From Vermamoeba vermiformis (lineage: Eukaryota): a stretch of DNA of 64,000 nucleotides. Under the pieces are notes generated by a model that did no database searches, was not told the DNA's origin, and saw nothing but the letters and a program-made list of their open reading frames with translations. Numbering within the stretch: the stretch's first letter is position 1; every line of letters starts with the position of its first letter. This document shows positions 292 to 37,820 of this stretch, piece after piece. The translations under genes and the position numbers were made by a program. The DNA lies in contig JBEWZL010000163.1 in NCBI GenBank assembly GCA_045837725.1, forward strand, positions 496,001-560,000. The letters are read 5' to 3'.

Positions 292-3200
292 GTGAGGAGT
301 TCAAGGATCATCCCCACGAATTGGCAGGAAACAACGATTTTCTCGTGCTCACACGACCTGATGTGATCTTGGACATCCACCGAGTAAGTAGAAATTCTCC
401 CTTTACGACCAAAATATTTGCATGCATTAAATGCCGCGAATTTTTTACTAATATCAGTTCGTGTCGTATCGAAATTTTGTGACCGTTGCGCAATCTGGAT
501 GTCTCACGATATTTTTCGTTTTAGAACTACTTGGAAGCTGGCGCCGACATCATCGAAACAAACACATTCTCTGGCACTACTATTGCTCAAGCCGATTATG
601 GTTGCGAGAAATACGTAAGTAAATTAATTCGATTTTTAACTTTCGCGAGGCAGATCTGAATAATTAAACGATAAATATAGGTCTATCGTATGAACAAGGT
701 TGCCGCTCAACTTGCTAAACAAGCTTGCGTTGAATATACTGCTAAAGACCCGAGCAAGCCTCGTTTCGTTGCCGGATCTATTGGTCCGACCAACAAAACT
801 AGCTCTGTCAGTGTTAACGTGAACAAACCTGATTTCAGAGCTATTAGTACGTATCTATATTTCATATATCATATTTAATTAAGATGATTACTGACGTATT
901 GAATTATTTCTAGCTTTTGATGAATTGGTTGAAGCTTACGCTGACCAAACTCGCGGTCTGTTGGACGGAGGTTCCGATATTCTTTTAGTCGAGACTATTT
1001 TCGATACTCTTAACTGCAAGGTACGTTTATAGCGCATTTACCCGTTTTAATTTGTTTCGATTTGTTTATTGTTGCAAATTAATTTTAATTTTGAATACAA
1101 CAGGCTGCCGTTGCTGCTATTGAAGATGTTTTCGCTGAAGGACATTTCAAGAGAGTCCCTGTCTTCGTAAGTACCGTCATATCAATTTTATTGGTGTCCA
1201 ATAACTCAACTCCTCGATCGCATCCAGCTCTCCGCTACTATTGTCGATAAAATGGGTCGTAACTTGTCTGGCCAAACCATTGAGGCCTTTTATAACAGTC
1301 TTCAACACTTCAAGCCTTTCTGCGTCGGCTTGAACTGCGCTTGGGGTGCCACTGATATGCGTCCTTATTTGGGTACGGATCTCGTTACAATAATTCGTCT
1401 CTACATATCTATTATTCATTTATATATGGCATTTATATTAATGTTGCTTTTGACATTTTTTTATGGCCTCTTACCGAGCTCATATATTTTATTTGGTTAA
1501 AACTACAATACGTTTTAATGCTTATTAATTTGAATATAGAGCGTTTGTCTCGTGTTGCTTCATGTTTCGTGCACTGTTATCCCAACGCTGGTATTCCTAA
1601 TGCTTTGGGCAAGTACGATCAAACTCCCGAGATTATGGCTCCTTTGGTCAAGGACTTTGGATCTGATGGTCTCATCAATATGATCGGTGGCTGCTGCGGT
1701 ACTACTCCCGGCCACATCAAGGCTATCGCTGAAGTCATGAAAGAATTCAAGCCTCGTCAGATCCCTCAAGCCGACACTAAATTGACCGTCTCTGGTCTTG
1801 AGCCCTTGATCTTTACTCCTGAAATCAGATTCGTTAACGTTGGTGAACGATGTAACGTTACTGGCTCCAGAAGATTCGCTAACCTCATTAAGGACGGCAA
1901 ATACGAAGTACGTAACGGATGCGCATCCAATTTTTTTTCTAATAATTTCAAATACTAATTAAATCGTATAATTAGGAAGCCGCCTCCGTCGCTTTGCAAC
2001 AAGTACAAGCTGGTGCTCAAATTTTGGATATTAACATGGACGAAGCTATGTTGGACTCCAAGGCAGCTATTGCCAAGTTCCTCTGCATGATCGGAGCTGA
2101 CCCCGAAATTGCTAAATTGCCTATTATGGTCGATTCATCGAACTTTGAGGTCATTGTGTCTGGTTTGAAGGTCTGTCAAGGCAAATGTATCGTCAACAGT
2201 ATCAGTTTGAAGGAAGGCGAAGAAGACTTCGTCAAGAAGGCTGCTGTTTGCAAGCGATTCGGTATGTATACCCCTCAATAGGTCCTAGTATAGCTATTAT
2301 AATATTCCAAGCCTCTTCCTATTTTTACTATTGCGGATTCGCATCCGAACTTATATAGAACGTATTTTCGTTGCTAACGCAAATTATGAATAGGCGCTGC
2401 CGTTATTGTCATGGCTTTCGACGAACAAGGCCAAGCCGTCACTGCTGACAGAAAGTTCGAGATCTGCAAGAGATCTTACGACATTTTGACTACACGCTGC
2501 GGATTCGCTCCTCAAGACATCATCTTCGATCCTAATATTTTGACCATTGCTACTGGTATCGAAGAGCACAACAACTACGCTGTTGAATTCATCAATGCCG
2601 TTAAAATGATCAAGGCTGCCATGCCGTTGACCCACGTGAGCGGAGGAGTCTCCAACTTGTCCTTCTCGTTCAGAGGCAACGACCACATTCGTGAGGCTAT
2701 GCACTCGGCATTCTTGTACCACGCCATCAACAACGGCATGGAAATGGGCATTGTCAACGCTGGTGCCTTGCCTATTTACAGCGACATCGAGCCGACTTTG
2801 TTGCAGTTGGTCGAAGACGCCATCTTGAACCGCACTCCTGACGCTACTGAAAAGCTGTTGGAGTTCGCTCAAAAGACTAAGCAAGCTGCTGGTGGTGCCA
2901 AGGCTGCTCAAGTCGAAGAATGGAGATCTAAGCCGACCGAAGAAAAGTTGACTTATTCTTTGGTCAAGGGTATCGATACGTACATCAACGAAGATACTGA
3001 AGAAGCTCGCGCAGCTGTAAGTATTTTATTAGCATTTTCGAATCACAGTTACGATCCCATAAGAAAATTTTGAGGGATCCGAGGTTCCCGTTACAAATTT
3101 GCTTATTATATAATCAATCGAATAATTTCAAGTCATTTGAAATTCATTCAAACTAAAGAACTCCGAGAGTCGCCAACAGAGCATTTCGCTAGGATATTGG

Positions 3201-5355
3201 CATAGTTAAGGGTTCGATATTCTTTCTTGCCTTTTTATTTTTGGATCCGCTTCTTTTTTTTGCAGCTTATTGACCTATTGTAAATAGTTGGGCAATCCTT
3301 TGAAGGTCATTGAAGGTCCTTTGATGGCTGGTATGAACGTTGTTGGAGACCTCTTCGGATCTGGCAAAATGTTCTTGCCTCAAGTCATTAAGAGCGCTCG
3401 GTAAGCACCAAAAAATACTTTATGTAATACTAGCAGTTTTTAATTCATTATACCTATAGTGTCATGAAGAAGGCCGTCGCCTATCTCGAACCATTTTTCG
3501 AGGAAGAAAAGAGGAAGGCTGCCGCTGCTATTGGTGGCGACGTCAATGCTGCCGCTGCTGAAGAACGATTTGCAGGCAAGGTCTTGTTGGCTACCGTCAA
3601 GGGAGACGTCCACGACATCGGCAAGAACATCGTTGGTGTCGTGTTGGGCTGCAACAACTACAAGGTCATTGACTTGGGTGTCATGTGCCCTTGCGAGAAG
3701 ATCATTCAAACTGCTATCGACGAGAAGGTCGACATTATTGGCTTGTCTGGCTTGATCACTCCTTCTTTGGACGAAATGATTTACGTCGCTAAAGAAATGG
3801 AGCGCAAGAAACTCTCCGTAAGTACTAACTTTCATGAAACGATTTCAGTGAACCAAAGCTAATTCTTTTGCACCAAGATTCCTCTTTTGATTGGTGGTGC
3901 CACTACCTCTCGTATTCACACTGCTGTCAAGTTGGCCCCTCAATACAGCCACCCTGTTATTCACGTCGCCGACGCCTCAAAGAGTGTTGTAGTTGCCGGC
4001 AGTTTGCTCGACTCTAACCCTGCTACTCGTGCTGAATTCGTTGAAGATATTCGCGACAGCTACACCGAGATCCGTGACGAGTACTACGCCTCGTTGAAGG
4101 ACCGCAAGTACTTGACCTTGGATCAAGCCCGCGAAAAGAGACTCAAGTTGGACTTCAAGAACTACGTCCCTGTCAAGCCTAGCTTCTTGGGCACCAGAGT
4201 CTTTGACAACTTCTCTATTGACGAGTTGCTTCCTTGCATTGACTGGAACCCCTTCTTCCAAACATGGCAGATCCGCGGCAAATATCCCAACAGAACTTAC
4301 CCCAAGATCTTCAACGACCCCGATGTCGGTGAGAAGGCTCGTGAGTTGTTCGATGAAGCCCAAGCCATGTTGAAGGACATTAAGGAGAAGAAGTTGTTGA
4401 CGATGAAGGGCATTGTTGGATTTTACCCTGCCAACACTGTCAACTTTGACGACATTGAATTGTACGAAGACGAGGCTCGTACTAAGCCCGTTGGAAAACT
4501 CTTCGGTCTGAGACAACAATCACAAAAGGAGACTGAACAGCCCTACATGTCCTTGGGCGACTTTATTGCTCCTAAAGAGTCTGGTGTCCACGATTACGTT
4601 GGCATGTTCGTCGTGTCTGGCGGTTTTGGCTGCGACGAGTTGGTCCAAAAGTACGAGAAGGACCACGACGACTACAACTCCATCTTGCTGAAGTCTTTGG
4701 CCGATCGTTTGGTAAGTGACACTCGTGCACGTTCTAACGTTATGACACTAACTCTCTGTCTTCTAGGCTGAGGCCTTTGCTGAAGTTTTGCACGCTAAGG
4801 TCCGACGCGAGTTGTGGGGCTACAGCAAGGAAGAGGCTTTGTCTACTGAAGACTTGCTCAAGATCAAGTACCAAGTAAGTGTTATCGATATAACTTTCCT
4901 TTTACGTGATTACCCGCCGTGGCATGATGACCTTTGACACATGATTTTGTTTACCAAAAAAAAATCTATGATTCCACAATCGAATTTCTTCACCTGAGCC
5001 ACGTTCAATTCATCAGATCTGCATCACTTTTCACAACTTTGTTCATTATATTAATGATCATTAATAGGGTATTCGACCTGCCCCCGGCTACCCCTCGCAA
5101 CCCGATCACACCGAGAAGGTTACTATGTGGGAGGTCATGAAGGTCAAAGAACAAACTGGCATTGAATTGACCGACTCTTTGATGATGTGGCCTGCTGCTT
5201 CCGTGTCTGGCTTGTACTTCGCTCACCCTAACTCCAAGTACTTCGCTGTTGATAAGATCACTCAAGAGCAAGTCCAAAACTACTCCGCTCGTAAGGGCAA
5301 GACTGCTGAAGAGATGCAGAAGTGGATGTCGAACATTTTGAGCTACGATGTCTAA
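292..5355 (+). CDS. metH: Cobalamin-dependent methionine synthase, multi-exon, 5' end outside window
   Basis: Exons translate to [72 protein letters not shown] (B12-binding DxHxxG), [13 protein letters not shown] and [15 protein letters not shown]. Stop TAA at 5353-5355; GT-AG introns link the ORF pieces. Confidence 0.97.
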
Positions 5356-30351: not shown

Positions 30352-31036
30352 CTCTGCTGTTGTGTTCGCGTTACTTCAGATTAGACTAGAAACCATTAAA
30401 GTTGTAAAGGTGATTCGCATCATACAAAGATCGGATATTTATGTATAGGTTTTGCAGGTCAAATTCTCGCTTACACTATTCTTTTAGATGGCCTCGGCAT
30501 CGTGACTGATCTATACTGTCTGTCGGATTGCAGATCCGCCCTTGATAAGTATTCCAAACATCAAAGGCGTCGACTTTGAATGTCCCTTGTCTGCGGTCTC
30601 ACATAGTACATATGCTAATCAGTAGTATATGCTCGAGAGTCAATCCGAACGTCTTTAAGTCGGTCGTCTTGTTATGCAAGTCGCGTTTTCAAGCGGAGAT
30701 CTTCTCCGCCGGTTGCCGAACATAGAGGCGAATCACATGTCACGCGATCGTAATTATATGTTATTACGAATGCGTAAATATTATTAGATCAGATAAACAA
30801 TACCCGTTCGAACGTACCTGAAAGGAGTGCACCTCGCTTTCTTTGCAGCACAATAGAGGAGCTCAGAATTCCGAACCAAAGATATCGTGCCCTATCTATA
30901 TTTGCTTCTTCAATATTTACTTGTGTTAATTGGTACAAGTCAACGTCGCAGTACACGCGGCTAACTGCACGCCAAATCTGCTGAATTCTAACGTTGACGG
31001 TACCTCGTCTTTGTGTATCCGATCAAACTCTATTGT

Positions 31037-33253
31037 TTATTTCATCTGCTTTAAGAAATGCTCGGCGACAAATCTACGTTGAATTTTACCGGTGGCAGTA
31101 CGCGGGAAGCTGTCAGTGATGAACACTTTCTTGGGCACCTTGAACTCGGCCAACTTAGTGCGACAAAAGGCCTTGACATCCTCTTCGCTCGTGTTCAATG
31201 AGGCGTCTTTCAGGACCACTGCGCAGAATACCTCTTCGCCGTACTTGGTGTCAGGAACTGCGAAGCAGATCGCATCCGAAACATTAGGGCATTCCTATTA
31301 ACAATGATCTATTAGCTGGTTGCCGCAAGAAAAGTCTCTTGAATAGTTTGTATTAACAAAACGAACCGGAAACGTTTTGGAATAAAATAGGATCCGCAGA
31401 CATCCAACCAAAAAAGGGAATGGATAACTAATCCATGAAACGTACGAATAATACGCCATCAATCTCAAGAGGAGATATCTTCTCGCCGCCTCTGTTGATG
31501 AGTTCTTTAATGCGACCAGTCAAGAACAAATAGCCATCCTCGTCCAAGTATCCTTGATCTCCGGTGCAGAACCATCCGTTGCTCGTCCAGTTGGCTTTGT
31601 TGGCTTCAGGATTGTTGTGGTAGCCTAGCGTGACGTTCTTGCCTTTAATGCACACTTGGCCCTTGTCGCCTCTTGGTACCTCATTGCCTAAAAGTCACGA
31701 TGAGCCACATATCTGAAACTATTACGCTCTCATAGCACTTACCGGCGTCGTCTAAGATCGCAATTTGGACATTGGTGCCAACACCGACTGACTTGACCTT
31801 TCGTTTGCCATCGACGGGGTTTGAAGCCATTTGATGTGATGCCTCTAGAAGTGCGGTACATAAGCTTAGATTTCCTAACGTGCTATTAAACTAGTTTAAC
31901 TTACCAGTCATGCCGTATGCCTCTAATACAGGTGCTTTGAATCTATGACGAGGTTTAGATGAAATTTCTTATTGCGACATTAATAACACTTACGTGCTCT
32001 CGAGTTGTTCAAACACTGCAGGGGCCAAAGCACTGCTGCACGAGCGAATGAAGCGGAACTTGACGCTCTCGAACTCAGTGGGGTTCGTTGATGCGCGTGA
32101 CAACAGGATCTGATGAATTGTTGGGACTGCGGTAAATGTTAGTTGGGGCCTTTAAGTTCAATCAATATAGCGTACCAGCAGTGTACCAAGTAACTTTATG
32201 CTTGATGACTTGAGGCCAGAAAGTTGAAGCTGAGAAACGAGGAGGAATGACGGCGGTACCACTGCATATTGTCATTAATACTGTTACGATAGACAGCTTA
32301 TAATACTTACCCTGACTTCAATGTTGATAAGAGACCGCCTAATAGACCGTGTACGTGGAACAGAGGCATGACGATCATACTGCTATCGTCCTATTATGAG
32401 CGGTCAATATGATGGTACGCGTGACACAAAATTTTTGGCGCGGACCTTTGTGAGCTTGTAGCTATCAGCGATATTTCCAATTGACGTGCACAAGTTCAGA
32501 TGAGTCAAGGGCACTAACTTTGGTCTGCTAGTAGTACCACTAGTGTGCAAATAAAGAGCGACATCGCTTTCAACCGGATCCTCCTAACATTTTATCGAAA
32601 TAAGAATACCGATATTGTCGGGTATAAAACTTACCGCTTTAGCATCGGCATGAGTGGCGATATTATCAAGAGGATGAAGATTGACGTGCACTTCGCTGCC
32701 TGAATGAGTAAAGCTGATCTCCCAAATAGGAATATTGAGTTCTTTTGCGGCTTCGCGAGCGGGCTGTGCTTCGTTATTAGAGGGTACTAATACTACTTTA
32801 GCCTTAATGTCCTCGAGATAGAATTTGAATTCGTCCTTTTTGTAAGCCGGATTCAGCGGAGCTGCGATTGCTGCACAAAAAATTTGTGAGTCATTCTTTG
32901 AAAAACATATACGCATTAATAAATTGCCGATGATTACAGCTTGGTACAATTTTGTGATAAATTTATTCAATTTTTTGACTATTTTGGTGGATTGACATAC
33001 CTTTTACGTTTGTGGTCGCCAAGAATGACACGACAAATTCTAAATTATTAACCAATACCGAAGAAATTACGTCGTGTGGCTTGATTCCATATTGCACGAA
33101 TTTTTGTCGGCATTCTTCGATTTTGCTTTGAAGAGATCTGAAAGAAACGACTACATCCGCATGGTCCGCCTCAGCCGCTGGGATAATAACAGCAGGCTTG
33201 TCGCCGAAGTTATTGGCAGAGTTATTAATAAGTTGGTGAAGTGTTGTAGCCAT
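31037..33253 (-). CDS. Oxalate--CoA ligase-like acyl-activating enzyme (AAE3/Pcs60 family), multi-exon
   Basis: [121 protein letters not shown] and [14 protein letters not shown] are characteristic of plant AAE3 and yeast Pcs60. Confidence 0.9.
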
Positions 33254-33481
33254 TTTGGTGGGTTTGAAAATATCTTGAAAACTTCTGGTTATTAAAGAAG
33301 GCGAGGCGGGACCGAAAATTCCTTGGATAATTTGTCTTTCGTTCTTTGCAAGCGGATATTCAATCCGTTTTTGTAAGCTCCGCACCAGGCTTTCTCGCAC
33401 AAGGTGTAAAAGTTTTGGCTTTATTAATCATTCAGATCTCGTAAATAGCAACACAAAACCTTGATTTAATATTGCATCATT

Positions 33482-35869
33482 ATGGACGGACCATCTTTTA
33501 TCGCAAAATGCTTTAAGAGCTTTGGAATCGAAGTTATCTTCGGCATTGTAGGGATCCCGATTACAAACACGGTCGCTGCAGCGCAAAAAGAGAAAATTAA
33601 ATTTATTGGTATGCGCAATGAACAGGTACGTACTTTTTTATTGTTAAACTCACCATGCATAAATTTCAGACGAGAAATATTTTTGATTTTCGAAAAATCA
33701 GATCTAATTGACATTAAATTAAATATATCGTACAATAGGATCGAATTAGCTTATTGCTTTCATTTAGGCGGCAGGATATGCGGCAGGCGCGTACGGATAC
33801 ATGACACAAAAGCCTGGAATTTGCATGACCGTTGCGGGACCAGGTATGTCACTCTATAGTATACTAATATGTTATAAATACTAATGCTATTAATATAGGC
33901 ATGTTGAACGTCATTTCAGGCATGTTTGGTGCGCAATCGAATTGTTGGCCTTTGATTGTCATCTCTGCTGGCAGTGAAGGGTACGTCTAATACGTCCATA
34001 ATAATTTAAATGCCTCATTATATCTACAATATCAATATTAACCAATTCAAAGAGCTAGTACTAATTTTCGTTTTCGATCGCAGATCTGAAGGTACTGTAC
34101 GTGGCTCAGAAGAGATGGGTGAAGGTGTTGGAACGTTCCAACAAGCACCACAAATGCCCGTAGCAGCGCCAGTCACGAAGTGGTCCGCTAGAATTCCTTC
34201 TTTGACTGAATTGCCTCGTGCTCTTTCTTTAGCCTTTCGTCATGCTACTTATGGTCGTCCTGGACCAGTCTATCTCGAAATTCCGGTAAGACAGACCCTC
34301 TATCATACGTTATTGTTTTCTATTCGAACTTTTATGCGATTGTTGTACCGTTCGTAAAACCATGGATCAGATCTTGACCTTTTATCTTAGTCACATTTGT
34401 TTGGAGAAAAAGTGCCAGAAAATGTTCATATCCCTCAAGGAGTACCTAAACCACCAATGACTGAAGCTTACTCTGAAGATCTGAACCAAGCCATTAAACT
34501 CCTGTCTGGAGCAGTACGTAGCACAAAAAATAATCCAAATGAACTTACGATACTAACCTTATACATATAGACTAAACCCTTAGTTATTTTTGGCAAAGGC
34601 GCCGCTTATTCACAAGCTGAAAAAGAAGCCAACGAATTGATTGAATTGACCAACTTCCCCGTGCTTACCTCGCCTATGGGCAAGGGTGTTATAGCCGACG
34701 ATCATAAATATGCAGGTAAGCCGATACCTTCTATATAGATACAAATTATCAATAGTATTCTAACATTACGTACCTAGTTAATGCCGCCAGATCTCTCGCG
34801 TTAAAGAGCGCCGACGTTATTCTCCTCGTAGGAGCGAGATTGAATTGGATGTTCCACTTCGGCCAAGGTCCTCGTATGAATCCCGATGCTAAGATTATTC
34901 AAGTTGAAATATTGCCCGAACAATGCCACATTAATAGAAATGCGGATGTGACCCTCGTCGGCGATTGCAAGATCGTCTTACGCCAGCTTATCTCGGCTTG
35001 GAAACCTAGCTCATTTACAACTGATAGTGACTGGTGGAAGAGTTTGAGACAGAACGTCGAGACTAACCAAGCGAATCTAGAAAAGAAATGTAAAGAAGAA
35101 ACAGTTCCCCTTGGCTACCACTTCACTTTGAAACAGATTGCCGATGCCATTCCTAAAGACGCTATTTTGGTCAGCGAAGGTGCTAATACACTTGATATGT
35201 ACGTACCTCTTCAATTTTTCTTTGCGAGTTGAGTGCTCTAACCGGATTTCAGTGGCCGAGTCATTATTAAGAGCTACGAGCCGCGCAGTCGATTAGATAG
35301 TAGCACTACAGCTGCCATGGGCATGGCGTTAGGCTTTACGATCGCTGCATCCGCTGTTTCTCCTGGTCGGAAAGTCGTAGCGGTCGTTGGCGACTCTGCT
35401 TTTGGCTTTAGCGGCATGGAAGTTGAAGTCCTATGCAGGTACGGCATATTTATATCCATTATAATACCATTACTAACCTCCCTATTAGATACAATATGCC
35501 CGTAACTATATTTTTGCTGAACAATAATGGAATTTACAGCGGAATTGAGGAAATTGAAGATGTGAACAATATCCCCGCGACAGGATTTGTGCCCAAAGCT
35601 CATTATGAGAAGGTAAGCGATATTTATAATTTGCTAAAATTAAATCATGAACGGGAGCTCAATTCAAGATTGGATGTGGTCTGATTTTCGAATATTAGGT
35701 GATTGAGGCATTCGGAGGAAAGGGATATTGCGTTGAAACGCCCGATGAGCTTAGGAAAGTGGTTCCCGAAGCAATTAATAGCAAAGTGCCGACGCTGGTA
35801 AACATTTTCATCAATCCGAAAGGCCCGATCCCTCAAAACGTACAGCAAAATAATCAAAACCAGAAATAA
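33482..35869 (+). CDS. TPP-dependent 2-hydroxyacyl-CoA lyase / oxalyl-CoA decarboxylase family enzyme, multi-exon
   Basis: IFGIVGIPI, GMRNEQAAGYAAGAYGY, TVAGPG, GRPGPVYLEIP, FGKGAAYSQAE, SPMGKGV, GARLNWMFHFG, VSEGANTLD and TPP motif GDSAFGFSGMEVE...NNNGIY. Stop 35867-35869. Confidence 0.93.
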
Positions 35870-36318
35870 AATATTAATATTTAACGATCGTCACTAAATT
35901 CGTATTATGGCGCTTATAATTTGAATGTAACCGAAGCGTAACAATTTTTGTGATACGATCTCGTTAATCGCCCAATTGTTACGATGAACTTGATTTAGTA
36001 TGTTGATTATATTGACGATAAAATGCTATTATTCGAATAATATTACCTGCAACATTTAATTTGAAGCGTAGCGGCGATTCTTCTTTTTTTTCGTGTTTGT
36101 GATCTTTGAGTCCTTTGCTGAACTAACGAATTGCCCTTAAGCGCCGCTCATGATTTGATCGGGTTGTGAAAATAAGAAAATAACGAAACTGCCCGAAAAT
36201 GCCCGAGTTTTGTTTTATGAACCGCGTGACATTTTCGTTGGGCCTTTTATGTTTGTCTTTTTTGAAATTACTGTTTTTTCTGAAACACTGAACAATAGCA
36301 CATCATCGGTCCTATACA

Positions 36319-37820
36319 ATGAGCGTTGAAGTGAAGAGGTTCAGCTGGGAAGAGATCAAAAAGCACAACAAGGAATCTGATGCGTGGTTCGTCGTGGATG
36401 GATTTGTGCACGACGTTACTCAGTTCATTACCATGCATCCAGGAGGAGCAGATTTTGTATTGGATAATTTAGCCATCGATGCATCAGAGAAATTCAGAGA
36501 CGAATTAATTCATCCTCACAGTCAGAATGCGGTTGACTTGCTCGCTACCTACAGAATAGGAGTTGTAGATAGTAAAGAATTAAGCCCCGAAGACCAACAA
36601 AAATTAAAAACGCCCGAAGAGAAAGCAATGGAATACGGCATAGACCTATCAAAGGGTCTTGTCTGGCCTGTATCTAGATTGGGCAAACGATATCAAGAAT
36701 TTATCGATTATATGGGTGTCTTACCTCATGGCAGATTAAAATACTTCGATAATCCTATTTTCGAGATGCTCACAGTCTGCCCTTGGTTCATGGTCCCGCT
36801 CTTTTGGATTCCCATCGCTTGCTACTTCTTCTACCTCTCTGTTCAAAATGGTCTTCCTGTTGAAGCACTCCCATTCTTATTGGTCACTGGTAAGCTCAAT
36901 TATGATTTTGCAAGTCACGCGATAATGCGTTGATATTTAATTTATTTCAACGGTTCTGATCAGAAATTCAGCTTTATTCAGATTAAAATCGATCATTATA
37001 TTCATCATGTATTAGGCATGCTGCAAATTATTTATTTAAATTATAGGATAATTCGCGAGATATTTAACATTATTTTTGGATTAGGCGCTCTTAACTGGGG
37101 CTTGGCCGAATGGTTATTGCACAAGTAAGTATTATTATAATTAATTACGTATTGTAATATTTAACATCATAAATTTGCCACTCGAATGCGGTTGGAAATT
37201 TTACCTCGGGCATACTGTTGATCCGGATCCCTCATACACGTTTCTAATGCTCTCTTTTTATTAGATATGTCTTCCATATGGACTCCATGTCGCTTTTTAC
37301 CAATATGTTGCATTTCTTGGTGCATGGCTATCACCATATCTTGCCGATGGATAACTATAGGTACATCCATCGGTCAATTATTCTGTGGCTATAATCACCT
37401 CGCTAATAATTTGTCGATAGATTGGTTTTCCCTCCTACGTTTGGTGTCATAATTGGCTACGCTCTTTGGGCTCCTATGCCTTTGGTAAGCAAACCAAAAG
37501 ATCCGATCGCAATCCGTTATGCCTTTACTTTATTCGTTCTTTTATTAATAATATGATTATAGCTATTGCCTATTCACGTTGCATATGCTCACTTTGCAGG
37601 CCTTGTATTGGGCTACGTGTTCTATGATTGCACGCACTACTTCATTCATCACCGCAGCACTAACTTGCCTTACTTGCGTATGATGAAGACGCATCATATT
37701 TACCACCACTACAATAACCATAACTCTAACTACGGCATCTCTTCGAAACTGTACGATATTTTGTTTGGAACGAATAACAATCCTGTCGCATCCAACCTCG
37801 CTGCTTCGGCTAAGCAGTAA
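36319..37820 (+). CDS. FA2H: Cytochrome b5-fused fatty acid 2-hydroxylase (FA2H/Scs7), multi-exon
   Basis: Cytochrome b5 HPGG and His boxes LHKYVFH, HFLVHGYHHILPMD, YDCTHYFIHH, KTHHIYHHY, then YGISSKLYDILFGT. Confidence 0.93.

What the first reader, a model, noticed from the sequence alone, without database searches (positions are those of the whole stretch)
31037..35869. Head-to-head oxalate-CoA ligase / oxalyl-CoA decarboxylase-like pair: candidate oxalate catabolism gene cluster in a protist
Seen: an AAE3/Pcs60-type ligase (ATG 33253, minus) and a HACL/OXC-family TPP enzyme (ATG 33482, plus) diverge with only 228 bp between start codons. Neither C-terminus (..FLKQMK; ..NNQNQK) carries a PTS1. 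Known: in plants cytosolic AAE3 makes oxalyl-CoA and a HACL1-family enzyme decarboxylates it to formyl-CoA, so these are consecutive steps, whereas yeast Pcs60 and human HACL1 are peroxisomal. Inference: a co-regulated, probably cytosolic oxalate detoxification or utilisation module on a bidirectional promoter, plausible for an organism meeting oxalate-producing fungi or plants. Pathway clustering is unusual for such eukaryotes.
Basis: partly seen in the sequence, partly recalled or inferred. Interest (0 to 1): 0.82.

Follow-up and report, generated by a model that had tools for sequence, protein, structure and literature searches.

The report
Amoeba oxalate-ligase and lyase gene pair
Two neighbouring, oppositely oriented amoeba genes encode an oxalate-activating enzyme and a thiamine-dependent enzyme that may break its product down, but the second enzyme belongs to a sister branch whose substrate is unproven.

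Summary
Two 10-exon genes diverge from a 228-bp spacer: an AAE3/Pcs60-type ligase (521 aa, 33253-31037, minus) and a HACL/OXC-family ThDP enzyme (557 aa, 33482-35869, plus). Spliced transcripts of both occur in two public runs. Neither has a PTS1, a PTS2 or an N-terminal extension. The organism is a Vermamoeba-like amoeba.

The ligase is a confident oxalate-CoA ligase family member. Its orthologue scores 530 bits to AtAAE3 against 211 to the next family, and 7 of 8 oxalate-pocket residues are kept, including the specificity pair Ser and His.

The ThDP enzyme is not OXC-type. It sits in the HACL-type clade (SH-aLRT 99), lacks the ESG lid shared by bacterial OXCs and the plant-type fused enzymes, and misses the NCBIfam OXC cut-offs. 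It also lacks 3 of 4 HACL/S lid contacts. Its lid is a third, amoebozoan type.

For coupling: 55 of 60 long homologues fuse these two families, 54 as ligase-ThDP and 1 in reverse. Against: human HACL1 barely decarboxylates oxalyl-CoA, and the next gene downstream is an Scs7/FA2H fatty-acid 2-hydroxylase, which suggests alpha-oxidation. Synteny in other genera could not be tested. The oxalate module is plausible (about 0.5) but not established.

The parts
31037..33253 (-). AAE3/Pcs60-type oxalate-CoA ligase gene. It has 10 exons: 33253-33001, 32870-32635, 32583-32446, 32390-32311, 32261-32176, 32126-31994, 31942-31905, 31844-31743, 31687-31446 and 31294-31037. The protein is 521 aa and ends LKQMK.
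   Evidence: Gene model, and 485/521 identical to P0121. Spliced contigs seen. Pfam AMP-binding and AMP-binding_C. Best solved relatives of P0121 are AtAAE3, LsOCS and yeast Pcs60. Pocket motifs FHVHG, RSCSS, EAYGMTEASH and TGKIQRR are present.
33254..33481 (.). A 228-bp spacer between the two start codons. It is the presumed shared, bidirectional promoter and holds both 5'UTRs.
   Evidence: Sequence. Only short, chance-level repeats were found. The related transcript P0001 reads open for 27 codons (81 nt) upstream of its ATG, so the two transcription starts are probably under about 150 bp apart (inference).
33482..35869 (+). HACL-type ThDP enzyme gene of the HACL/OXC family. It has 10 exons: 33482-33625, 33768-33843, 33899-33980, 34084-34285, 34391-34513, 34571-34715, 34778-35198, 35253-35438, 35489-35612 and 35699-35869. 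The protein is 557 aa and ends NQNQK.
   Evidence: Gene model, and 532/557 identical to EukProt Vermamoeba P0366. Spliced contigs seen. Pfam TPP_enzyme_N, M and C. Solved relatives, tree, lid alignment.
36319..37820 (+). Neighbouring gene 450 bp downstream: a cytochrome-b5-fused fatty-acid 2-hydroxylase of the Scs7/FA2H type. Only two exons were examined and no full model was built. Whether it belongs to the unit is uncertain; it is listed because it underlies the main rival explanation.
   Evidence: Pfam Cyt-b5 (3.5e-19) on 36292-36930 and FA_hydroxylase (2.5e-8) on 37563-37817. Yeast Scs7 (4zr0/4zr1) is the best solved relative of both pieces.

Best explanation
The pair is a two-step, CoA-dependent oxalate-catabolism module in a Vermamoeba-like amoeba.

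Step 1: the ligase converts oxalate, ATP and CoA to oxalyl-CoA. Family membership and the specificity residues are shown; the activity is inferred.

Step 2: the divergently transcribed ThDP enzyme decarboxylates oxalyl-CoA to formyl-CoA and CO2. This step is inferred only. The enzyme is a HACL-type protein with an amoebozoan-specific C-terminal lid, not an OXC-type one.

Both proteins lack peroxisomal and N-terminal targeting signals, so they probably act in the cytosol (inference). Sharing a 228-bp spacer, they are probably co-regulated (inference).
For: 1. The genes are real, spliced and transcribed, head to head, 228 bp apart.

2. The ligase orthologue P0121 (485/521 identical to the window protein) scores 530 bits to AtAAE3, 530 to LsOCS and 467 to yeast Pcs60. 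The next family, malonyl-CoA synthetase, scores 211.

3. Of the eight AtAAE3 oxalate-pocket residues named in PMC8905533 (passages), seven are identical in the window protein. These include Ser289 and His319, which are conserved only in oxalyl-CoA synthetases. The one change is Ala313 to Gly.

4. Gene-fusion evidence. Of 60 long homologues examined (P0150 and P0241-P0299), 55 carry both a ligase part and a ThDP part. Of these, 54 are ordered ligase-ThDP and one, from Gloeochaete, is ordered ThDP-ligase. They come from bryophytes, streptophyte and chlorophyte algae, Galdieria, Chromera and Rhytidocystis. The Gloeochaete ThDP part falls in the same HACL-type clade as the window enzyme.

5. In plants the separate AAE3 and OXC enzymes are cytosolic, co-expressed and act consecutively (PMC8004701, passages).

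6. Neither window protein has a PTS1, a PTS2 or an N-terminal extension.
Against: 1. The ThDP enzyme sits inside the HACL-type clade (SH-aLRT 99). It is apart from bacterial OXCs and from the plant-type OXC domains of the ligase-ThDP fusions.

2. It lacks the ESG[HRN] lid motif present in all 4 bacterial OXCs and all 13 ligase-ThDP fusion domains that were aligned.

3. Its 95.5% orthologue P0366 misses both NCBIfam OXC equivalog cut-offs: 547.9 against 557, and 508 against 739. It scores like chimpanzee HACL1 (562 and 522), not like a Lactobacillus OXC (913 and 896) or the Marchantia fusion (634 and 602).

4. Human HACL1 decarboxylates oxalyl-CoA at kcat under 1 per minute, against 98 per second for MeOXC (PMC7154664, passages).

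5. 54 of the 55 fusions use the OXC-type domain, not the window's type. The only HACL-type fusion is a single transcriptome-derived sequence.

6. Prokaryotic neighbourhoods give no support. None of 80 HACL-like metagenome loci has an AAE3-type ligase nearby. None of 80 bacterial AAE3-like ligase loci has an OXC/HACL gene within the fetched flanks.

7. A fatty-acid 2-hydroxylase gene lies immediately downstream.

8. No formate dehydrogenase or formyl-CoA transferase was seen in the 64-kb window.
Confidence: 0.5

Rival explanations
1. The ThDP enzyme is a true 2-hydroxyacyl-CoA lyase that serves fatty-acid alpha-oxidation together with the Scs7/FA2H-type 2-hydroxylase next door. In that pathway a 2-hydroxy fatty acid becomes 2-hydroxyacyl-CoA, which is cleaved to formyl-CoA and an aldehyde one carbon shorter. 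The oxalate-CoA ligase would then be an unrelated neighbour, or linked only loosely through CoA or formyl-CoA metabolism.
For: The enzyme is placed in the HACL-type clade with SH-aLRT 99. The best solved relatives of P0001 are HACL/S enzymes: 8vzd 522 bits, 8vzj 516 and 6xn8 475, against OXCs at 383-407. It has the Phe-Gln active-site pair and no ESG lid. The FA2H/Scs7-type gene lies 450 bp downstream on the same strand. In mammals, 2-hydroxy fatty acids are shortened by HACL1 and HACL2 (PMC10398889, listing and start of abstract only). Human HACL1 is a poor OXC.
Against: Of the four lid residues that contact acyl-CoA in TbHACL/S (R540, K541, Q543, W547; PMC11271303), only Gln is kept. So it is not a typical HACL/S either. 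It has no PTS1, unlike the animal and fungal HACL1 sequences aligned. This reading leaves the head-to-head oxalate ligase and the many ligase-ThDP fusions unexplained. FA2H products are normally built into sphingolipids, so its adjacency may be chance.
Confidence: 0.25
2. The ligase, lyase and 2-hydroxylase genes form one three-gene neighbourhood around a promiscuous formyl-CoA-releasing ThDP enzyme. That enzyme would accept both oxalyl-CoA and 2-hydroxyacyl-CoAs, and its unusual lid would reflect the dual use.
For: Both neighbours have a textbook link to this enzyme family. The lid matches neither the OXC nor the HACL/S pattern. OXC and HACL form the same ThDP intermediate and show overlapping side activities (PMC7154664; PMC8411744).
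Against: There is no direct evidence. Known family members are strongly specialised, with a roughly 10^4-fold or greater difference in OXC activity between MeOXC and human HACL1. Conservation of the three-gene arrangement could not be tested.
Confidence: 0.1
3. The adjacency is a chance product of a compact genome. The two enzymes act in unrelated contexts and merely share a short intergenic region.
For: Spacers near the pair are short, for example 450 bp between the ThDP and FA2H genes. No conservation beyond the species level was shown. Prokaryotic relatives are not clustered.
Against: Chance adjacency of these two particular families is of order 10^-4 (my estimate). The same two families have been fused in both orders in distant eukaryotes. 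First-exon fragments of both genes (P0359/P0360 and P0368/P0369) are recorded on contigs with the same longest lengths, 530,556 and 593,190 nt. This suggests, weakly, the same arrangement in other Vermamoeba-like assemblies.
Confidence: 0.15

Closest known systems
Plant cytosolic CoA-dependent oxalate catabolism (AtAAE3 with AtOXC)
   Same: It has the same ligase family with the same oxalate-pocket residues. Both enzymes lack peroxisomal signals. The two proposed consecutive steps are the same (PMC8004701).
   Different: AtOXC's C-terminus (...RLQHKN, read from the cloning primer in PMC8004701) matches the end of the ESG-lid tails of the fused streptophyte domains (for example Closterium ESGRLTHKN). 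The window enzyme is in a different clade and has a different lid. The plant genes are not reported as neighbours in the papers I read. Here they are head to head.
Yeast and fungal peroxisomal Pcs60 (oxalyl-CoA synthetase) with Pxp1/HACL1-like ThDP enzyme
   Same: An AAE3-type ligase co-exists with a HACL-type, not OXC-type, ThDP enzyme. Pcs60 (8aff) scores 467 bits to P0121.
   Different: The fungal homologues seen here end in -SKL or -AKL. The window proteins do not. That Pxp1 is an OXC is recalled as a proposal only; I saw no assay.
Natural ligase-OXC fusion proteins of algae, bryophytes, Galdieria and Chromera
   Same: They unite the same two families in a single polypeptide, which argues for a functional link.
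   Different: They are fused rather than divergent genes. 54 of 55 carry an OXC-type (ESG-lid) domain. Many chlorophyte forms and the Chromera form end in PTS1-like -SKL, -AKL or -SKM.
Animal HACL1 and bacterial HACL/S (TbHACL/S 8vzd, RuHACL 6xn8)
   Same: They share the large clade, are the best solved relatives and have the Phe-Gln active-site pair.
   Different: The window enzyme lacks the R-K-x-Q...W lid contacts, keeping 1 of 4. It has no PTS1. In Vermamoeba it carries an extra stretch of about 10 residues just before the Phe-Gln motif.
Bacterial oxalyl-CoA decarboxylase (OfOXC 2c31, EcOXC 2q27, MeOXC 7ayg)
   Same: Same three-domain ThDP fold family, and the same formyl-CoA-ThDP chemistry is expected.
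   Different: The window enzyme has Phe-Gln where these have Tyr-Glu and has no ESG lid. Similarity is lower, at 383-407 bits. It falls below the equivalog cut-offs. The usual bacterial partner is recalled to be formyl-CoA transferase, not an AAE3-type ligase.

Membership tests
AAE3/Pcs60 oxalate-CoA ligase (ANL superfamily) | AMP-binding N-domain plus AMP-binding_C domain | tested here: met
   Pfam PF00501 and PF13193 were found on window exons. PF13193 scores 61.6 bits against a cut-off of 24.5. The single-exon PF00501 matches fall below the whole-protein cut-off, as expected for fragments.
AAE3/Pcs60 oxalate-CoA ligase (ANL superfamily) | Closer to characterised oxalate-CoA ligases than to any other ANL family | tested here: met
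   Tested on the 93%-identical orthologue P0121: AtAAE3 530 bits, LsOCS 530 and Pcs60 467, against malonyl-CoA synthetase 211 and 4CL 201.
AAE3/Pcs60 oxalate-CoA ligase (ANL superfamily) | Oxalate pocket: Val215, His216, Cys288, Ser289, Ala313, Met314, His319 and Lys500 in AtAAE3 numbering. Ser289 and His319 are specific to this family (PMC8905533). | tested here: met
   7 of 8 residues are identical and Ala313 is Gly. The window motifs are FHVHG (position 220), RSCSS (292), EAYGMTEASH (316) and TGKIQRR (504). Positions were mapped through the P0121 to 5ie0 alignment.
AAE3/Pcs60 oxalate-CoA ligase (ANL superfamily) | Catalytic activity and selectivity for oxalate | not testable with these tools
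   Needs an enzyme assay.
Oxalyl-CoA decarboxylase (bacterial OXC and plant OXC type) | Passes the curated OXC equivalog models | tested here: not met
   Tested on P0366, which is 95.5% identical. NF006721 scores 547.9 against a cut-off of 557. TIGR03254 scores 508.3 against 739.4.
Oxalyl-CoA decarboxylase (bacterial OXC and plant OXC type) | C-terminal lid with Glu-Ser-Gly-(His/Arg/Asn). The Ser corresponds to OfOXC S553 and MeOXC S568. | tested here: not met
   The window lid is ...INPKGPIPQNVQQNNQNQK. All 4 bacterial OXCs and all 13 ligase-ThDP fusion domains aligned carry ESG. The role of S568 is taken from PMC8411744 and PMC7154664.
Oxalyl-CoA decarboxylase (bacterial OXC and plant OXC type) | Tyr-Glu pair near ThDP (MeOXC Y134 and E135) | tested here: not met
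   The window has Phe-Gln (GTFQQ). The plant-type fused OXC domains also have Phe-Gln, so this feature defines only bacterial OXC.
Oxalyl-CoA decarboxylase (bacterial OXC and plant OXC type) | Groups with OXC clades in a family tree | tested here: not met
   It lies inside a 19-row HACL-type clade with SH-aLRT 99. Bacterial OXCs and ligase-ThDP fusion domains lie outside that clade (37 rows, quick IQ-TREE search, no bootstrap).
2-hydroxyacyl-CoA lyase (HACL1 and HACL/S) | Groups with HACL1 and HACL/S in a tree, and these are the best solved relatives | tested here: met
   Tree. Solved relatives 8vzd 522, 8vzj 516 and 6xn8 475 bits (tested on P0001).
2-hydroxyacyl-CoA lyase (HACL1 and HACL/S) | Lid residues that contact acyl-CoA: R540, K541, Q543 and W547 in TbHACL/S | tested here: not met
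   Only Gln is kept; the equivalents of Arg, Lys and Trp are Pro, Ile and Gln. This comes from the P0001 to 8vzd alignment, which ends at Q543. The W547 equivalent was counted on from there by hand.
2-hydroxyacyl-CoA lyase (HACL1 and HACL/S) | Peroxisomal PTS1 (animal and fungal HACL1) | tested here: not met
   The protein ends -NQK and matches neither the canonical nor a relaxed PTS1 pattern. No PTS2 was found.
2-hydroxyacyl-CoA lyase (HACL1 and HACL/S) | Cleavage of 2-hydroxyacyl-CoA | not testable with these tools
   Needs an enzyme assay.

The most novel reading that the evidence does not exclude
Amoebozoa (Vermamoeba, the dictyostelids Cavenderia and Synstelium, and unnamed relatives) carry a third functional subtype of the HACL/OXC family. 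It is defined by a proline-rich C-terminal lid, roughly P-x-[GS]-[PT]-[IL]-P-[KQ]-[IN]-[VL], and by the absence of a peroxisomal signal. In this reading the subtype became a cytosolic oxalyl-CoA decarboxylase independently of the bacterial and plant OXC lineage. In Vermamoeba it is wired to the oxalate ligase through a shared bidirectional promoter. A bolder variant has it serving both oxalate and FA2H-derived 2-hydroxyacyl-CoA breakdown in a three-gene cluster.
Probability: 0.2. Interest if true: 0.65.

Novelty: new variant of a known kind. Interest (0 to 1): 0.42.

Why it matters
CoA-dependent oxalate breakdown (AAE3, then OXC) has been worked out in plants. Outside plants, the second enzyme is assumed rather than shown.

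This locus gives a cheap test of whether a HACL-type enzyme with a distinct lid can be the oxalyl-CoA decarboxylase of amoebae, and by extension of fungi, which also have only HACL-type enzymes. If it can, substrate specificity in this biotechnologically used family (C1 carboligases) has a third, unexplored lid solution.

Two-gene metabolic pairs on a shared promoter are uncommon in amoebae. Together with the widespread ligase-OXC fusions, this pair shows a recurrent evolutionary pull to couple the two steps. If the enzyme instead proves to be an ordinary HACL, the finding reduces to a chance or loosely linked neighbourhood.

Tried and rejected
1. Whole-genome search. No genome is held for this window. 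A second OXC-type gene, formate dehydrogenase and formyl-CoA hydrolase could therefore not be sought outside the 64 kb. Inside it, a Pfam scan of 93 of the 173 open frames of 75 aa or more found none. I chose the longer, non-overlapping frames and left 80 out.

2. Synteny in relatives. The metagenome scan with alignment A1 returned 80 loci at 32-50% identity, mostly bacterial-looking. Only one, L053 (1,680 nt), has the window-type lid, and it has no flanks. No tool gave access to other amoebozoan genomes.

3. Prokaryotic neighbourhoods. None of 80 HACL-like loci has an AAE3-type ligase; 3 of 80 have only a 27-29% generic AMP-ligase. None of 80 bacterial AAE3-like ligase loci has an OXC/HACL gene; 2 of 80 have a 25% ThDP enzyme. 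This says nothing about eukaryotes.

4. Raw RNA-seq of the same species label (X21, X23). Only 7 and 15 reads laid, all 95-99% alike and mostly partial. That is too few to show starts, strand or level. No listed holder is on record as RNA. X5 and X6 are 'RNA?' by guess, though their contigs are spliced. Word depths (X5 about 39-42 for both genes; X6 10.7 against 3-6) are not a valid expression measure and were not used.

5. Representative-library search with P0366. Of the 143 new representative proteins checked (from the 150 listed), 1 (P0502, a distant ligase-ThDP fragment) has a ligase part. No fusion with a window-type lid was found.

6. Spacer motifs. Only 8-13-nt chance-level repeats were found.

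7. Earlier notes of this scan: none for this genome.

8. Literature searches found no paper on a natural AAE3-OXC fusion or gene cluster, nor on oxalate metabolism in Vermamoeba. The searches were: 'oxalyl-CoA synthetase' + 'oxalyl-CoA decarboxylase' + 'fusion' (the two hits I read use the word for tags or reporters); 'oxalyl-CoA' / 'bifunctional' / '2-hydroxyacyl-CoA lyase' / 'alga'; 'AAE3' + 'OXC' + 'gene fusion'; and 'Vermamoeba vermiformis' + 'oxalate' (one irrelevant paper). PMC5755239 lists Chromera HACL only as an alpha-oxidation marker.

9. Structure and complex prediction were not run. They would not separate the two substrate hypotheses, and I make no claim of binding.

Full report
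**What is there.** The region holds two intron-rich eukaryotic genes in divergent orientation. I built the models by splicing GT-AG introns against two 92-94%-identical transcript-derived proteins found in the protein collection: P0001 for the ThDP enzyme and P0121 for the ligase.
- The ligase gene runs from ATG 33253 to a stop ending at 31037 on the minus strand. It has 10 exons and encodes 521 aa.
- The ThDP gene runs from ATG 33482 to a stop ending at 35869 on the plus strand. It has 10 exons and encodes 557 aa.
- All 18 introns are GT-AG and 49-151 nt long.
- My first automatic ligase model skipped exon 3. I corrected this.
- The two ATGs are 228 bp apart, and each is the first in-frame ATG after an upstream stop.
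- Single-exon Pfam scans give AMP-binding and AMP-binding_C for one gene and TPP_enzyme_N, M and C for the other.

**Expression and splicing.** Contigs from two public runs (X5, X6) lie on the region at about 97-99% identity with the introns removed. The runs are labelled with other organisms and their kind is guessed as RNA.
- For the ligase, 8 of 9 junctions are listed at my coordinates. The ninth (32584-32634) appears with four differing letters at the exon end.
- For the ThDP gene, 7 of 9 junctions are listed. The spacing of the pieces of X5 record 3 fits exons 5 and 6 being joined as modelled.
- The 35613-35698 junction rests only on an 8-letter loose end in X6.

Spliced copies mean both genes are transcribed and processed. 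Raw RNA-seq carrying the same species label as the DNA holder gave only 7 and 15 reads. It therefore says nothing about transcript starts or levels.

**Organism.** The 90%-identity cluster of P0001 contains a EukProt protein labelled Vermamoeba vermiformis (P0366), which is 532/557 identical to the window protein. The window is therefore from a Vermamoeba-like amoeba (Amoebozoa). No whole genome is held for it.

**The ligase.** P0121 is 485/521 identical to the window protein.
- Against all solved structures it scores 530 bits to Arabidopsis AAE3, 530 to Lathyrus oxalyl-CoA synthetase and 467 to yeast Pcs60. All three are deposited as oxalate-CoA ligase or oxalyl-CoA synthetase. The next family, malonyl-CoA synthetase, scores 211.
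- PMC8905533 (passages) lists the AtAAE3 oxalate pocket as Val215, His216, Cys288, Ser289, Ala313, Met314, His319 and Lys500. [quoted passage not shown]
- I mapped these positions through the alignment. The window protein has FHVHG, RSCSS, EAYGMTEASH and TGKIQRR, which is 7 of 8 identical with Ala313 replaced by Gly.

I regard family membership as established. Oxalate activity is the strongly favoured inference.

**The ThDP enzyme.**
- Solved relatives. The best relatives of P0001 are bacterial 2-hydroxyacyl-CoA lyase/synthases: 8vzd 522 bits, 8vzj 516 and 6xn8 475. The proven oxalyl-CoA decarboxylases of E. coli, Methylorubrum and Oxalobacter score 407, 392 and 383.
- Tree. I built a 37-row tree with a quick IQ-TREE search, SH-aLRT support only, rooted on four bacterial OXCs. 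Five rows with extra domains, aberrant C-termini or near-duplication were dropped first: Clydaea, Synchytrium, Myotis, Plakobranchus and P0001. The window protein groups with Vermamoeba P0366 and three unnamed eukaryotic proteins (P0002-P0004) at SH-aLRT 98. That group lies inside a 19-row HACL-type clade at SH-aLRT 99, together with animal and fungal HACL1, bacterial HACL/S-like proteins and the Gloeochaete fusion. The ThDP domains of the ligase-ThDP fusions lie outside this clade.
- C-terminal lid. The literature names the lid as the main determinant of specificity (PMC7154664; PMC11271303). The alignment sorts it into three types. The first is an ESG[HRN] lid, in all 4 bacterial OXCs and all 13 ligase-ThDP fusion domains. 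The reverse primer in PMC8004701 shows that AtOXC ends ...RLQHKN, which matches the end of the streptophyte fusion tails. The second is an RKxQxFxWLTR-like lid, in animal and fungal HACL1 and bacterial HACL/S. The third is a proline-rich lid (window: PKGPIPQNV) in the window group.
- HACL/S contacts. Of the four lid residues that contact acyl-CoA in TbHACL/S (R540, K541, Q543, W547), only Gln is kept.
- Distribution of the third lid. The representative-library search found the same lid type in further proteins. Two of them are labelled Cavenderia fasciculata and Synstelium polycarpum. The lid is therefore an amoebozoan feature.
- NCBIfam. The Vermamoeba orthologue falls below both OXC equivalog cut-offs (547.9 against 557; 508 against 739). 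It scores like chimpanzee HACL1, not like a Lactobacillus OXC or the Marchantia fusion.
- Kinetics in print. PMC7154664 reports that human HACL1 decarboxylates oxalyl-CoA at under 1 per minute, against 98 per second for MeOXC.

Clade membership therefore argues against OXC competence. The distinct lid leaves the true substrate open.

**Evidence that the two families belong together.** A search with the 1127-aa protein P0150, which turned up by accident, showed that fusions of exactly these two families are widespread.
- Of 60 long homologues examined (P0150 and P0241-P0299), 55 have both parts. Of these, 54 are ordered ligase-ThDP and one, from Gloeochaete, is ordered ThDP-ligase.
- Named sources include Sphagnum, Marchantia, Calypogeia, Closterium, Chlorella, Micractinium, Coccomyxa, Trebouxia, Polytomella, Galdieria, Chromera and Rhytidocystis.
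- Having both orders implies at least two independent fusion events. This is classic gene-fusion evidence that the ligase product feeds the ThDP enzyme.
- The caveat is that 54 of the 55 use the OXC-type domain. The only fusion with a HACL-type domain is a single transcriptome sequence.
- Prokaryotic gene neighbourhoods add nothing. None of 80 HACL-like metagenome loci has an AAE3-type ligase nearby. None of 80 bacterial AAE3-like ligase loci has an OXC/HACL gene within the fetched flanks.

**Targeting.** Neither protein ends in a canonical or relaxed PTS1. Neither has a PTS2 nonapeptide in its first 60 residues. Both start at the first conserved residues of their families, so there is no room for a presequence. 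The nearest relatives of both (P0002-P0004, and P0124, P0125, P0132, P0140, P0158) also lack PTS1. Fungal and animal homologues, and many chlorophyte fusions, end in -SKL or -AKL. A cytosolic location is the default inference.

**The overlooked neighbour.** The gene 450 bp downstream on the same strand (36319-37820) has a cytochrome b5 domain and a fatty-acid hydroxylase domain. Yeast Scs7 is the best solved relative of both pieces. This is the FA2H architecture. In mammals, FA2H-type products are shortened by HACL enzymes (PMC10398889, listing and abstract start only). The ThDP gene is thus flanked on each side by a gene with a textbook link to one of the two activities of its family. The rest of the window holds unrelated genes: methionine synthase, a kinase, a phosphatase, a BTB protein, syntaxin, Cpn10, Vps52, Fes1, RhoGAP, a serpin and a SEP-domain protein. 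It holds no formate dehydrogenase or formyl-CoA transferase.

**Verdict.** My confidences for the competing readings are:

| Reading | Confidence | Main basis |
|---|---|---|
| Two-step oxalate module | about 0.5 | Fusion evidence and the shared spacer |
| Alpha-oxidation lyase acting with FA2H | about 0.25 | HACL-type clade placement and the FA2H neighbour |
| Dual-use enzyme in a three-gene unit | about 0.1 | Lid matches neither known type |
| Chance adjacency | about 0.15 | Compact genome; no conservation shown |

The oxalate reading is not established, because the second enzyme is HACL-type with an uncharacterised lid. Conservation of the arrangement outside Vermamoeba-like strains could not be tested with the tools available. 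Within them, there is only a weak hint: first-exon fragments of both genes are recorded on contigs of identical longest lengths. I found no paper describing the fusions, such a gene pair, or oxalate metabolism in Vermamoeba.

Noticed in passing
P0241-P0295, P0298 and P0150: Natural fusions of an AAE3-type ligase with an OXC/HACL ThDP enzyme, about 1100 aa long, are widespread. They occur in bryophytes, streptophyte and chlorophyte algae, Galdieria, Chromera and Rhytidocystis. 54 are ordered ligase-ThDP and 1 (Gloeochaete) is ordered ThDP-ligase. Databases label them '2-hydroxyacyl-CoA lyase' or 'hypothetical'. My four literature searches found no description of them.
   Followed up: partly
window 36319-37820 (+): A cytochrome-b5-fused fatty-acid 2-hydroxylase gene (Scs7/FA2H type) lies directly downstream of the ThDP gene. 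Only two exons were examined and no full gene model was built.
   Followed up: partly
window 34084-34140 (exon 4 of the ThDP gene): Vermamoeba-type proteins carry an extra stretch of about 10 residues (within SEGTVRGSEEMGEGVG) just before the active-site Phe-Gln motif. It is absent from the other 39 sequences aligned. It is present in the spliced transcripts, so it is not an unspliced intron.
   Followed up: partly
P0287-P0289 and cluster members P0392-P0404: A third architecture was seen in metagenome proteins of about 1149 aa: ligase, then an acyl-carrier (PF00550) domain, then a distant ThDP enzyme (28-30% identical to the window's).
   Followed up: no
P0122, P0151, P0330, P0331, P0337, P0338, P0340, P0343, P0344, P0346-P0351, P0353 and P0355: NRPS-like proteins of 1276-1973 aa, with condensation and carrier domains, have adenylation domains close to the AAE3-type ligase. 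They are 58-65% identical over the window's 80-aa exon. They may be oxalate- or small-dicarboxylate-loading synthetases.
   Followed up: no
runs X5 and X6 laid on window 30800-36200: Runs labelled with other organisms (B and C) hold spliced transcripts of both genes that are 97-99% identical to the window. A Vermamoeba-like amoeba was apparently present in those samples.
   Followed up: no
P0361 and P0370: Full-length intron-free forms of both proteins are each recorded with a longest contig of 5,474 nt. If this is one contig, the two mRNAs were assembled together, which would fit overlapping or abutting 5' ends. This could not be checked.
   Followed up: no
window 1356-4768 (+): Exons of a cobalamin-dependent methionine synthase were seen, with S-methyl_trans, Pterin_bind, B12-binding and Met_synt_B12 domains.
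   Followed up: no
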